DNA of 57,325 bases, taken from the NCBI GenBank assembly GCA_025497365.1, contig GCA_025497365.1_4955.1; one strand, 5' to 3'. Within the stretch, counting starts at the first letter, position 1. Every line of letters begins with the position of its first letter. The DNA comes from a phage. The position numbers were made by a program. Shown piece after piece: positions 18,001-21,000 of this stretch.

Positions 18001-21000
18001 TGAAGTTCTTCGCCAGTTCACCGTTTTTCTTTTTAGCGCGGTATGCAAGACGATATTTCAACATAACGTGTATTTTACCAGACGTCAGACCGAAACACTG
18101 ATTATCCCAGCCAACTTTATCAAACAGGTTAGTGCTGACTTCCGAACCTACTGGTACTTTTTCCATCAGACGTTTTTGAAGTTCGTCACCAACTTTTTTC
18201 ACACATTACGCGTACCTCGATAGTCGTCTTAATTTAACGATCAACCTTGTAACTTTACTCCAGTCAGATTCAGTAAAGTCGTCCACATCTTTAGCTCATA
18301 ACTCATTAACATGTCGTGGGTTATATGGTTCTTTCTTGACGGGCTGTTTCCGTTTCTTTTTACCCATAGGTTATTCCCATTTTCACACCCTCGTTCATAA
18401 GCAACCCATCGCTGCTCCCCGTGATAAAGATACCCCACCGCTTGTAATCCGTCAAGAATTATTTTAAAGATACAGCTAATACAGAACGTGTACTAACTGC
18501 ACATATTTCTACATAGGTTTCATGATTTTGAGTTGCAGCTAATACAGAACGTGTATTAGTAGATCATAGATTCATAGATTTCGTCATGTTTATTTTTTAA
18601 CCAACCTCTCTCTATCTTATTCTTTTTATTATCTTTTTATAATAAACATAATAAACATAGATAAATAGAAGAGTAGTATAAGTAGTATAAGTTGCTGCAA
18701 GTAGGAGAGGTTTAAAAGGTATAGGGAGTCGCATACTTCCCATGAATCTATACGTAAAATAATTCTTGACGGATTACACCGACACAACTACCCTGTGGTT
18801 AAGAAAACAAGAAGGGTTGAAGGTATGGATCCGAACATCAGAGTTGCTACAGACGAATTCATTCGTCGCTCCCGTAAAGTTCACGGTGATCGTTACGACT
18901 ACTCATTCAGCATTGTTGAAGATAGTTCCAGCACAGTGGTTATTATTGACTGTGAAACTAACACAGTGTTTTTCCAGGTTGTCGCTGAACATCTGGACGG
19001 TGTTGAACCATTAACGACTGCTGTTGAACCGGTAACGACTGCTGTTGAACCGATCAAGAATCTTTCTGAGATATTCGGTAACGTTGTAAACAGTGTGTAT
19101 CACCAGTGCAATTATTCATCTGAAATGTTAGAATTTAGTCATGTTGAAACAATACGAGGACAATCCCCGTGATTAACGTAAAAGTTAATAAAGTTGACAA
19201 CTCACTACGTATGGTATTCGGTTGGGGTAGTATCTGTAAAAAACGTAATCAGGAGACAGGTCAGTTAGAAATTTACACAGACACGGACAACGAACAATTT
19301 CCCGAGGATGTCACTCTGAAAGCATGGTTGGACTTCATGAATTCTGATCAGCGCATCATGGACAATATGCACAATGAACAACCTGTTGGGAAAGTTGTGT
19401 TTGCGTTCCCGATGACTGAAGACATTGCGGCAAGTTTTGGGCTGGTTGATAAACTGGATCAGACAGGCGTCATTGTTGGTACGTTGATAACTGATGACGA
19501 AGTTTTGAAAAAGTTTCAGACTGGTGAATATACGGGATATAGTATCGGTGGAACTGCATATTATGAGGATGTGGAATAATGCGTACAGATGGTACTAATC
19601 ATTTACGCCGCGCTAAATCGATGAAGATCGGTTTTCTGTCCGGCGTGACAAAACCTGCTCACGATGGAGCAAATGCTCTTGTTCTTAAATCACATTCAGA
19701 ACCGCCTGCTGTTGTTCTTTTAAAGTCAACATTCAGTGCAGCACTGGCTGAAAAAGAACTTGAACAGAAAGTTCGTGATTTCCTCTCTAATTCGTGGATG
19801 TTGAACGATGCGCTTTATGAAGCAGCAGAGGATATTGCAAAAGATGATTCTGTTACCGATAAACAAGCAGCATTGCGTGACGCGGTAAATGAATATATTA
19901 TAACGTTGCAACAGGCCGCTGGTATTTCGATGAATAAAGCGAAAGGTGGTAAAACTGAAGGCGGTGAAGTTTTCCCGGCATCTGATTATGCATATGTACC
20001 AGATCCAGAAAAACCTTCAACCTGGAAACTTCGTTTAACAGCTACCCCTGGCGGTGAACCTGATGCGCGTATTGTAGGCGCTGCACTTGCTGCATTAGGT
20101 CCGGGTTATCGCGGTAACAAAGTTGAAATCCCTGAAGCCGATTTAGCAGGTGTGAAAAACAAAGTCCGATCCGCGTGGAAAAAATTACACCCGGACCAGG
20201 AAGTACCTCAAGTTTTAAAAACGGCAGAGGAAATCGAAATGTCCGAACTGGAACTGGAAAAATACAAAGCCCTGGCTGAGATGAACGACGTCCATAAGGC
20301 GTATCATAATTCTCTGCCTGAATCTGATCAGGAAGCATTCCGTAAAATGGATGCGACTGCTCGCGATGCCCTCGTGACGATGGCTAAACAGGCTGATGAA
20401 TCGTTTACCACGATTGCGGGTCAGGTTGTTCAGAAATCTGTAGCTGGTCCGATGTATGACGTTCTGAAATCTCAGGACGAACAACTTCGCAAAGCACAGA
20501 CTGAAGCGGCACTGGCGAAAGCTAAAGAAACCGTGAACGCTGATTTCGCACACATTCCGGGTGAAATGGTACAGAAAACCCAGATGGTCATGACTCTTGA
20601 GCGTTTGCCGGAAGCGGATCGTAACTTCCTGGTTGAAAAACTCAAACAGGCCGACGAACTCTGGAAAGCACGTAAAGAACCAGCCGCGCCGAACGGCAGT
20701 GGTAAAGGTTCCAGTGCACTGGAAGACATGATCAACGAATGGCTGAAAGCAAATCCGGGTAAAACACGCACCCAGGCTATGCAGGCCGTTTCTGCAACTA
20801 AAAAAGGTCAGGAAGCAATCGAAGCGATGCGAGGTGACGAATAATGGCTAAGAACAGCAAAATCTACTGGAACTATGAGCGCCCGACCCGTGCCGTTGCA
20901 TCCGTGGCTATTTCGGCAGGTGTTGGTCTTGTTCTGGATACCAGTTTAGGTGACACTAACCAGTGTGTACCTAAATACAAACTCCCAACGGCTGGAGGTC

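What the first reader, a model, noticed from the sequence alone, without database searches (positions are those of the whole stretch)
18469..18794. AT-rich iteron region between divergent promoters: candidate replication origin or packaging site
About 300 bp between a minus-facing promoter (18451) and a plus-facing promoter (18755) contains a 22-bp direct repeat (CAGCTAATACAGAACGTGTA at 18471 and 18535), an inverted repeat (AACCTCTCTC ... GAGAGGTT), TCATAGATTCAT / ATGAATCTAT inverted copies, short tandem repeats (AGTAGTATAAGTAGTATAAG; ATAAACATAATAAACATAG) and a long AT-rich tract. This is the architecture expected of an origin or a terminase recognition site.
Basis: seen in the sequence. Interest (0 to 1): 0.5.

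Follow-up and report, generated by a model that had tools for sequence, protein, structure and literature searches.

The report
Iteron and AT-rich cassette, second copy
The AT-rich repeat region is real: it is the shorter of two related protein-binding cassettes in this 9NA-like phage (palindromic binding sites beside the most easily melted DNA in the genome), most likely a replication-origin-type element, though a promoter-control role is nearly as likely.

Summary
The window is a 9NA-like (Nonanavirus/Sashavirus) E. coli siphophage. A 288-bp core lies between two outward-facing copies of a 12-member consensus sigma-70 promoter family. It contains two 63-bp-spaced palindromic sites (CAGCTAATACA-GAACG-TGTATTAG), CATAGAT boxes, 9-mer tandem repeats and the least stable 100 bp of the whole window.

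That region is mostly outside the window. Every relative examined carries both cassettes.

The palindromic sites differ between lineages. They usually match between the two cassettes of one genome. They track the N-terminal XRE-type helix-turn-helix domain of the gene abutting the larger cassette (9NA gp84 family). They do not track the small terminase or the primase. The AT-rich block and CATAGAT boxes are conserved across all types.

In 9NA and Bas82 the two cassettes are the two most meltable sites in the genome. The position matches SPP1 oriR.

Best reading: an origin-type element of the oriL/oriR or ori/crr kind (0.4). Rivals: an operator region for the gp84-like regulator (0.3), a packaging site (0.1), a relic (0.1). 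Function is untested.

The parts
18427..18468 (-). Leftward consensus sigma-70 promoter copy: UP-like TTTAAAATAA, -35 TTGACG (18455-18450), 17-nt spacer, -10 TATCTT (18432-18427). It drives the small minus-strand gene cluster.
   Evidence: identical 24-26-nt core at 14332-14357 and 28771-28796
18244..18369 (-). First small gene downstream of the leftward promoter (homolog of 9NA gp36 / AVIO78A_045; no family match).
18473..18499 (.). Palindromic site 1: CAGCTAATACA-GAACG-TGTACTAACTG, centre 18486.
   Evidence: central 5 bp flipped to CGTTC in relatives L003 and L006 while the arms are kept
18536..18559 (.). Palindromic site 2: CAGCTAATACA-GAACG-TGTATTAG (perfect 8-bp arms), centre 18549, 63 bp from site 1.
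18560..18580 (+). Two CATAGAT boxes (18565, 18573). A third lies at 18656. This motif is conserved across all site types.
18573..18704 (+). AT-rich block, 86% identical over 134 aligned columns (about 133 bp) to the block upstream of the small-terminase gene in a relative whose TerS is identical to the window's (L021).
   Evidence: E 8e-35
18590..18690 (.). Least stable 100 bp of the window (GC 0.19). Phased T5 tracts; pyrimidine-rich to purine-rich strand switch near 18650.
18639..18692 (+). Tandem 9-mers ATAATAAAC (2.9 copies, 18639-18665) and AGTAGTATA (2.3 copies, 18672-18692).
18753..18802 (+). Rightward copy of the same promoter (-35 TTGACG 18766-18771, TACCCT 18789-18794), overlapping the ACCCTGTGGTTAA leader motif shared by plus-strand late operons.
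18825..19172 (+). 115-aa gene with no family match, annotated DUF723-like in phage PDP46. Together with the right promoter copy it is absent from 9NA, Sasha and the Klebsiella relatives.
1..51 (+). Last two sites of the paralogous, larger cassette upstream of the small terminase: partial ...CACGTTGTGTATTATCTGTAAAC, and TTAATACTAACATTGTATTAGCTGTAAAAC. The rest of that cassette lies outside the window.
119..754 (+). Small terminase subunit gene.
   Evidence: phrog_51, E 1.3e-11
57207..57325 (-). C-terminal end of the gp84-family gene, the candidate site-binding XRE-type HTH protein. Its N-terminal domain lies beyond the window end.

Best explanation
The region is a cis-acting protein-binding cassette. 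It is the shorter of two paralogous copies in the genome.

**Parts of each copy**
- Lineage-specific palindromic sites.
- Conserved CATAGAT boxes.
- A conserved, intrinsically bent AT-rich block that is the easiest DNA in the genome to melt.

**Proposed function (inferred)**
I think it most likely acts as a replication-origin-type element. The larger copy lies between the gp84-family gene and the small-terminase gene and would be the main site. This copy would be a secondary origin or an auxiliary cis-replication site, like SPP1 oriR relative to oriL, or P4 crr relative to ori.

**Proposed mechanism (inferred)**
1. The gp84-like XRE-type protein binds the palindromes through its variable N-terminal domain.
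2. A conserved factor binds the CATAGAT boxes and AT block. The 92%-conserved primase-polymerase/SF3 helicase is the obvious candidate.
3. The AT block melts, helped by transcription from the strong outward-facing promoters.
4. The phage replisome is loaded.

**Shown versus inferred**
- Shown: the anatomy, the paralogy, the covariation and the melting minimum.
- Inferred: who binds what, and that replication starts here.
For: - Two 63-bp-spaced palindromes sit next to an AT block.
- The AT block is the least stable 100 bp of the window.
- In the complete genomes of 9NA and Bas82, the two cassettes rank first and second for lowest duplex stability.
- Paralogy of the two cassettes: 133 bp at 85% in Bas82 (86% for window versus L021), 251 bp at 67% in 9NA, about 220 bp at 65% in G-type phages.
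- In 9NA the site motif occurs 9 times in the genome, and only in these two gaps.
- Five site types (W, N, K, G, B) follow the N-terminal domain of the adjacent gp84-family protein.
- The head-operon copy carries the same type as the gp84-adjacent array in four independent types.
- CATAGAT boxes are conserved across types and confined mostly to the cassettes.
- The phage encodes its own DNA polymerase and a primase-polymerase/D5-type helicase.
- SPP1 has exactly this layout. It has two loci of direct repeats plus an AT-rich unwinding element, both bound by one protein. oriR sits with moron genes between gene 7 and the scaffold gene (PMC6316719). That is the same slot as here (gp7/Mu-F-like gene at 16747-17706).
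Against: - This protein has no similarity to SPP1 gp38 or to any solved structure or Pfam family.
- Its covariation with the adjacent site array could reflect physical linkage rather than function.
- In Sasha and BDX09P1 the head-operon copy carries a site type different from the phage's own gp84 type. So matched sites here are not essential.
- Spacing between sites varies between lineages (63 bp here, 69 bp in 9NA, wider in the G-type relatives).
- Both cassettes are collinear with a downstream late operon, which suits a control region.
- There are no replication data.
Confidence: 0.4

Rival explanations
1. Operator/control region. The palindromes are operators for the gp84-like XRE-type regulator. 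That regulator would modulate the adjacent early leftward promoter and/or the rightward head operon, giving an early-to-late switch of the phi29 p4 or lambda OL/OR kind. The bent AT block would serve as an architectural element. The larger copy would autoregulate gp84 and control the small-terminase operon.
For: - The N-terminal domain of the gp84 family has an XRE-family HTH fold.
- The sites are palindromes whose centre can flip while the arms are kept, as expected for a symmetric dimer.
- Site 1 starts only a few bp (about 5) beyond the UP-like element of the leftward promoter, and it keeps that position in all lineages.
- Both cassettes have the same orientation relative to a downstream late operon and end in the same ACCCGTGG-type leader motif.
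- The variable N-terminal, conserved C-terminal pattern resembles immunity-type repressors.
Against: - The sites do not overlap the -35 or -10 hexamers.
- The TerL and tape-measure operons have the same promoter and leader arrangement without any cassette, so the cassette is not needed for late expression.
- This reading does not explain why the AT blocks are the two least stable sites of the genome.
- It does not explain the conserved CATAGAT arrays.
- The distant relative L013 keeps palindromes plus an AT tract here without a divergent promoter.
- No consensus promoter was found for gp84 next to its site array.
Confidence: 0.3
2. Packaging signal. The cassette is a second or pseudo pac site recognised by terminase. 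The copy upstream of the small-terminase gene would be the main pac site.
For: - The paralogous cassette lies directly upstream of the small-terminase gene. That is where pac or cos sites usually sit; SPP1 pac overlaps the gene 1 start.
- 9NA uses pac-site headful packaging (PMC4153490).
- Repeats flanking a bent AT-rich centre recall SPP1 pacL-pacC-pacR.
Against: - Site type does not covary with the small terminase N-terminal domain. The N-terminal domains of 9NA and L024 are near identical yet their sites differ. L024 and L028 have the same sites yet different N-terminal domains.
- Two independently deposited relatives (OZ035775, OZ035768) both start at the same base, 29 nt upstream of the TerS ATG and outside the paralogous block. 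This may be a read-derived terminus, but that is my inference.
- The mapped pac position in Zeng et al. 2019 could not be read.
Confidence: 0.1
3. No dedicated function. The region is a duplicated piece of the terminase-upstream intergenic DNA. It would be kept by recurrent recombination or gene conversion and would serve at most as a mosaic-exchange boundary.
For: - Mismatched site types in Sasha and BDX09P1.
- Within W-type genomes the paralogs are more alike (85%) than orthologous head-operon copies of W-type and 9NA phages (71%). This suggests conversion.
- Gene content on the left flank is highly mosaic.
Against: - The cassette is present at the same position in every relative, down to 72% protein identity of the neighbouring gene.
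- The core of the AT block is more conserved between W-type and 9NA phages (91% over 33 bp) than the flanking genes are (about 79%).
- Paired sites and their palindromic arms are maintained.
Confidence: 0.1

Closest known systems
Bacillus phage SPP1 oriL / oriR (origin-binding protein gp38)
   Same: - Two distant loci share the same organisation: repeated protein-binding sites plus an AT-rich unwinding element.
- One locus lies at the gene of the binding protein.
- The other lies in the late region, with moron genes, between the gp7-type head gene and the scaffold/capsid genes.
(PMC6316719.)
   Different: - There is no sequence relationship: gp84 family versus gp38 gives hhalign probability 0.1%.
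- The sites here are palindromes rather than direct boxes.
- The candidate binder has an XRE-type HTH.
- The larger locus is intergenic, not inside the gene.
- Origin activity has not been shown.
Lambdoid ori (O-protein iterons plus AT-rich region)
   Same: - Dyad-symmetric sites lie next to an AT-rich, strand-asymmetric tract.
- Site type is lineage-specific and follows the variable N-terminal domain of a protein with a conserved C-terminal part.
(Lambda facts are from my own knowledge.)
   Different: - Lambda ori lies inside the O gene and exists as one copy.
- O is not XRE-type.
- The spacing here is irregular.
Satellite phage P4 ori / crr with the alpha primase-helicase
   Same: - Two separated cis elements carry the same short repeats.
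- The phage encodes a P4/D5-type primase-helicase.
(P4 facts are from my own knowledge.)
   Different: - Binding of the primase to the CATAGAT boxes is pure inference.
- The primase shows no lineage-specific domain (92% identity between 9NA and the window).
phi29 p4/p6 central control region; lambda OR/OL operators
   Same: - An AT-rich, bent intergenic region lies between divergent early and late promoters.
- It carries several palindromic sites for a small phage regulator.
- There are two operator clusters, and specificity resides in an HTH domain.
(From my own knowledge.)
   Different: - The sites here flank the promoter hexamers rather than overlapping them.
- The other late operons lack the cassette.
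- The phage is virulent.
SPP1 pac (pacL-pacC-pacR)
   Same: - Repeats lie on both sides of a bent AT-rich centre.
- The paralogous copy is directly upstream of the small-terminase gene (for SPP1).
   Different: - There is no covariation with the small terminase.
- This copy is 18 kb from the terminase genes.
- 9NA shows a single pac fragment.

Membership tests
Iteron-type replication origin (lambda ori, SPP1 oriL/oriR, iteron plasmids) | Two or more repeated binding sites for one protein | tested here: met
   Two sites in this copy. Seven more motif matches in the 9NA paralog and about eight sites in the Bas82 paralog. In 9NA the motif occurs nowhere else in the genome.
Iteron-type replication origin (lambda ori, SPP1 oriL/oriR, iteron plasmids) | Adjacent AT-rich DNA-unwinding element | tested here: met
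   Least stable 100 bp of the window. The two cassettes rank first and second in the 9NA and Bas82 genomes. Stability is computed; actual unwinding was not tested.
Iteron-type replication origin (lambda ori, SPP1 oriL/oriR, iteron plasmids) | A cognate initiator protein related to known initiators | tested here: not met
   The candidate binder (gp84 family) has an XRE-type HTH. It has no Pfam, PDB-sequence or SPP1 gp38 similarity. Covariation is present, with two exceptions.
Iteron-type replication origin (lambda ori, SPP1 oriL/oriR, iteron plasmids) | Replication initiates at the element, or the element supports replication in cis | not testable with these tools
   Needs marker-frequency analysis or plasmid amplification assays.
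pac site of headful-packaging phages | Sites recognised by the small terminase (specificity follows its DNA-binding domain) | tested here: not met
   Variants of the TerS N-terminal domain do not follow site types.
pac site of headful-packaging phages | Location at or next to the small-terminase gene | tested here: not met
   This copy is 18 kb downstream of TerS (119-754). Only the paralog is adjacent.
pac site of headful-packaging phages | Virion DNA ends or a pac fragment map here | not testable with these tools
   9NA gives a single pac fragment, position not stated. The mapping paper (Zeng et al. 2019) is not held.
Operator region of an XRE/Cro-type phage regulator | Palindromic sites of about 15-27 bp | tested here: met
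   8-11-bp arms around a 5-bp centre. The centre is inverted in relatives while the arms are kept.
Operator region of an XRE/Cro-type phage regulator | Sites overlap or abut core promoter elements | tested here: inconclusive
   Site 1 starts about 5 bp beyond the UP-like element, with its centre about 65 bp upstream of the predicted start. There is no overlap with the -35 or -10 hexamers.
Operator region of an XRE/Cro-type phage regulator | Cognate HTH protein encoded by the phage | tested here: inconclusive
   The N-terminal XRE fold of the gp84 family covaries with the site type of the adjacent array in 5 of 5 types. It matches this copy in 4 types and mismatches in 2 phages. Binding was not tested.
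Sigma-70 promoter | -35 and -10 hexamers at 17-nt spacing, recurring as a family | tested here: met
   Both flanking promoters match. About 12 copies share TTTAAAATAATTCTTGACGGATTACA and a TAnnnT hexamer 17 nt after the -35 in most copies (18-19 nt in two). There are 23 matches to the 10-mer against 3.8 expected.
Miniature transposable element with terminal inverted repeats | Terminal inverted repeats unique to the element, plus a target-site duplication | tested here: not met
   The 24-nt arms are copies of the genome-wide promoter family, identical at 14332 and 28771. There is no flanking direct repeat. The right arm is absent in 9NA, Sasha and other relatives, yet the core is still present.

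The most novel reading that the evidence does not exclude
The two cassettes and the gp84-family protein form a bipartite, lineage-specific cis/trans system. An XRE-type specificity protein licenses two origin-like sites that the conserved primase-polymerase/helicase then uses. One site sits at the start of the packaging operon and the other at the start of the head operon. DNA replication, late head-gene expression and packaging would thus be coupled through shared DNA elements. Site-type swapping would act like a replication 'immunity' between co-infecting relatives.
Probability: 0.15. Interest if true: 0.65.

Novelty: new member of a known kind. Interest (0 to 1): 0.45.

Why it matters
No origin, regulator or cis-control element has been defined for the 9NA-like phages in anything I could read. 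This group is now used for biocontrol and as part of the BASEL reference collection.

The analysis turns a vague 'AT-rich repeats' remark into a concrete, testable system:
- two paralogous cassettes;
- five exchangeable site types;
- a named candidate binding protein of unknown function (phrog_25538);
- a conserved second motif (CATAGAT).

If the cassettes are origins, they give this phage group a replicon map and a parallel to SPP1 oriL/oriR in Gram-negative hosts. If they are operators, they identify the early/late switch. Either way, they mark the places where these genomes recombine.

Tried and rejected
- **Non-coding RNA:** the Rfam scan of 18000-19300 found only a sub-threshold chance hit.
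- **Hidden small gene:** the 43-aa ORF at 18612-18743 on the minus strand (annotated in Bas82 as Bas82_0032) is frameshifted in L005 and absent in 9NA, L008 and Sasha. It is spurious.
- **Transposon-like element:** the 24-nt inverted repeat is two copies of the promoter family.
- **Small terminase as site reader:** no covariation.
- **Primase as the type-specific reader:** 92% identical between site types, with no divergent domain.
- **gp84-family homology to known initiators:** none in Pfam, PHROGs function labels, PDB sequences, Foldseek or SPP1 gp38. Only the N-terminal XRE fold is recognisable.
- **My guess of a TTGCAC-17-TATGAT promoter for gp84:** it did not pass the promoter scan.
- **A second cassette in the distant relative L013:** an exact-match search found nothing beyond the head-operon copy, so this is uninformative.
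- **Literature:** the key paper (Zeng et al. 2019, J Virol 93:e00848-19, PMC6819911) is not held. Citing papers give no pac coordinates.
- **AACCTCTC/GAGAGGTT inverted repeat:** at chance level and not conserved.
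Full report
**Identity and setting**

The window is a 9NA-like siphophage of E. coli. It is 96-97% identical over the region to AVIO78A, KarinMuster_Bas82, PDP46 and PJ16, and 79% identical to Salmonella phage 9NA.

The finding lies in a gap of about 455 bp with these neighbours:
- On the left, a small minus-strand gene (18244-18369, 9NA gp36 homolog).
- On the right, a plus-strand gene starting at 18825, followed by an XkdF-like protease homolog, a scaffold ('major virion structural protein') and the capsid gene.
- Further upstream on the plus strand, an SPP1 gp7 / Mu-F-like head-morphogenesis gene (16747-17706), then three small minus-strand genes.

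**Observation**

- The direct repeat is 20 nt exact, at 18473 and 18536, and extends to 33 nt at 85%. No direct repeat longer than 14 nt appeared in 1000 dinucleotide shuffles.
- The two promoters are real consensus matches.
- The AT-rich tract drops to 15-18% GC.
- The stretch 18590-18690 is the least stable 100 bp of the whole 57-kb window (dG -103 against a mean of -134.7, sd 6.9; the next lowest is -113.4).
- Two minor items are not meaningful on their own. The 8-nt AACCTCTC/GAGAGGTT pair is neither significant nor conserved. A 10-nt inverted repeat arises in 10% of shuffles.

**The promoters**

The two flanking promoters are outward-facing members of a family of about 12 near-identical sigma-70 promoters. 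The family consensus is TTTAAAATAA-TTCTTGACGG-ATTACA, followed by a TAnnnT hexamer 17 nt after the -35 in most copies (18-19 nt in two). The 10-mer matches 23 times against 3.8 expected.

Because both copies share the identical core, they form a perfect 24-nt inverted repeat (18443-18466 / 18755-18778). Other family members carry the same 24-26 nt. The inverted repeat is therefore a by-product of the promoter family, not a transposon end.

The right-hand copy and the 115-aa gene it precedes are missing in 9NA, Sasha and the Klebsiella relatives. Those phages have an extended -10-like TGATATTAT before the protease gene instead.

**The repeats are palindromes**

Each repeat is a dyad: CAGCTAATACA-GAACG-TGTATTAG. 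The centres lie 63 bp apart.

In close relatives the central 5 bp is replaced by its reverse complement (CGTTC), at either or both sites, while the arms are kept. This is the signature of a symmetric binding site and of hairpin-mediated template switching.

**A second, larger copy**

The same kind of site, plus the AT-rich block, occurs between the gp84-family gene and the small-terminase gene. The small-terminase gene is at window 119-754 (phrog_51, E 1.3e-11).

The window itself starts inside that array. Sites lie at 1-22 and 25-51. The window ends inside the gp84-family gene. Most of this copy is therefore outside the window, and I read it in relatives.
- In 9NA the motif TAACAC-N4-TGTTATCTGnAACTA occurs nine times in the genome: seven in the gp84/TerS gap and two in the gp36/gp37 gap. 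An exact 26-nt ATAGATAGTATAGATAGTATAGATAA is shared between the two gaps.
- In Bas82 the terminase-upstream gap has about eight sites and a block 85% identical over 133 bp to its own head-operon copy (E 2e-34).
- In L021, a relative whose TerS is identical to the window's, the terminase-upstream block aligns to window 18573-18704 at 86%.
- Paralogy is also significant in 9NA (251 bp, 67%), in G-type phages (about 220 bp, 65%) and in a K-type phage (74 bp, 80%).

**Covariation**

Five site types exist:

| Type | Site | Phages or loci |
|---|---|---|
| W | TARTRCA-N5-TGTATTAGCTG | window, Bas82 and others |
| N | TAACAC-N4-TGTTATCTGnAAC | 9NA |
| K | AACAC-N4-TGTTAkACnAAAC | L026 / L012 |
| G | CTTACCA-N3-TGGTAAGCTGAAAC | L024 / L010, L028 / L008 |
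| B | TAATCCTrTsATAG | BDX09P1 |

- The N-terminal DNA-binding region of the small terminase does not follow these types. 9NA and L024 have near-identical N-terminal regions but different sites. L024 and L028 have the same sites but different N-terminal regions.
- The primase-polymerase/helicase is 92% identical between site types.
- The protein that does follow the types is the gene abutting the larger array. Its N-terminal 60 residues differ by type, while the rest is conserved. At 44% identity it is the most diverged shared protein between 9NA and the window.
- The family is tiny, confined to this phage group and of unknown function (phrog_25538).

Caveats:
- The protein and its adjacent array are physically linked, so covariation there could be hitch-hiking.
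- The head-operon copy matches the gp84 type in four independent types. It mismatches in Sasha (gp84 type W; head copy carries G/N half-sites) and in BDX09P1 (gp84 type B; head copy type W).
- Matched sites in this copy are therefore not essential.

**Conserved components**

CATAGAT boxes and the core of the AT block are conserved across all site types. In the window, 3 of the 4 CATAGAT copies lie at 18565-18662. In Bas82, 7 of 8 lie in the two cassettes.

In the complete genomes of 9NA and Bas82, the two AT blocks are the first and second least stable 100-bp segments (z 3.6-4.3).

**What it most likely does**

The combination points to an origin-type element of the SPP1 oriL/oriR kind:
- type-specific sites;
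- conserved boxes;
- the genome's two melting minima;
- two copies, one beside the gene of the candidate binding protein;
- a phage-encoded polymerase and a primase-polymerase/D5-type helicase.

[quoted passage not shown] It also states that oriR sits with moron genes in a segment interrupting the head genes (PMC6316719). The SPP1 record shows that segment between gene 7 and scaffold gene 11. That is the same slot as here. The resemblance is architectural only, because the gp84 family is unrelated to gp38.

I give this reading 0.4.

The main rival, at 0.3, is an operator region for the gp84-like regulator.
- For: the XRE fold, the palindromic sites next to the promoter's UP-like element, and the collinearity of both cassettes with a downstream late operon.
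- Against: the TerL and tape-measure operons have the same promoter and leader arrangement without a cassette, and this model does not explain the melting minima.

A packaging role for this copy is unlikely, at 0.1.
- The sites do not covary with the small terminase.
- 9NA shows a single pac fragment.
- Two deposited relatives both start at the same base, 29 nt upstream of the TerS start codon and outside the shared block. That this reflects a read-derived terminus is my inference.

A relic maintained by recombination gets 0.1.

**Limits**

- The paper that mapped 9NA packaging (Zeng et al. 2019) is not in the library. It may already describe these repeats and the pac position.
- Statements about lambda ori, P4 ori/crr, phi29 p4 and PhageTerm conventions rest on my own knowledge.
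- No binding, replication or transcription data exist for any of these elements.

Noticed in passing
window 1538(-), 3937(-), 6089(-), 12125(-), 14347(-), 18458(-), 18763(+), 28786(-), 46983(-), 47046(-), 51839(+), 54284(+): A family of about 12 near-identical sigma-70 promoters: TTTAAAATAATTCTTGACGGATTACA, then TAnnnT 17 nt after the -35 in most copies (18-19 nt in two). Most face leftward into clusters of small minus-strand genes interspersed among the virion genes. The family is also present in 9NA.
   Followed up: partly
window 68-80, 6118-6130, 18790-18802, 28814-28826; Bas82 53060 (minus strand): A conserved ACCCGTGGTAAAC-like motif lies 35-50 nt upstream of the start codons of plus-strand late operons (TerS, TerL, head operon, tape measure). 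It also lies upstream of the gp84-family gene. It could be a late-promoter or leader element. The TerL and tape-measure copies have no recognisable -10 hexamer.
   Followed up: partly
window 18484-18488 and 18547-18551 versus loci L003, L005, L006 (alignment A1): The central 5 bp of the palindromic sites is exactly reverse-complemented (GAACG to CGTTC) in close relatives, independently at either site. In L003 the right arm is also corrected to a perfect palindrome. This pattern is typical of hairpin-templated mutation.
   Followed up: partly
window 1 and 57325: The window is not a whole genome. It begins inside the site array upstream of the small terminase and ends inside the gp84-family gene. 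About 1 kb is missing, including that protein's DNA-binding domain and most of the larger cassette.
   Followed up: yes
window 18825-19172, especially 19001-19050: This 115-aa gene has no family match and is present only in the E. coli-type relatives. It contains in-frame 21-bp tandem repeats (GTTGAACCnnTAACGACTGCT, coding VEPLTTA/VEPVTTA). The gp84-family proteins of W-type phages also carry variable PVARVEA-type tandem repeats, annotated as a repeat region in Sasha.
   Followed up: no
window 18612-18743 (-); Bas82 13587-13730: A 43-aa ORF inside the AT-rich block is annotated as a gene in Bas82 (Bas82_0032). It is frameshifted in one close relative and absent in distant ones, so it is probably an annotation artefact.
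   Followed up: yes
window 19169-19579: The gp37 homolog is labelled 'DNA methyltransferase' in RefSeq 9NA and Bas82, and by its best PHROG match. However, it matches the Pfam XkdF-like phage serine protease family (E 9e-8) and sits where a prohead protease is expected, so the annotation is probably wrong.
   Followed up: partly
OZ035775.1 and OZ035768.1, base 1 (equivalent to window 90): Two unannotated relatives, about 92% identical to each other here, both start at exactly the same base, 29 nt upstream of the small-terminase ATG. This base is not a start codon. It may be an experimentally derived packaging terminus.
   Followed up: partly
L014 (9NA) 168-185 and 216-233: An 18-nt direct repeat GTTTTCAATAACTTAAAG lies between the AT block and the small-terminase gene of 9NA. 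It has related copies in the K- and G-type relatives and has no counterpart in the head-operon cassette.
   Followed up: no
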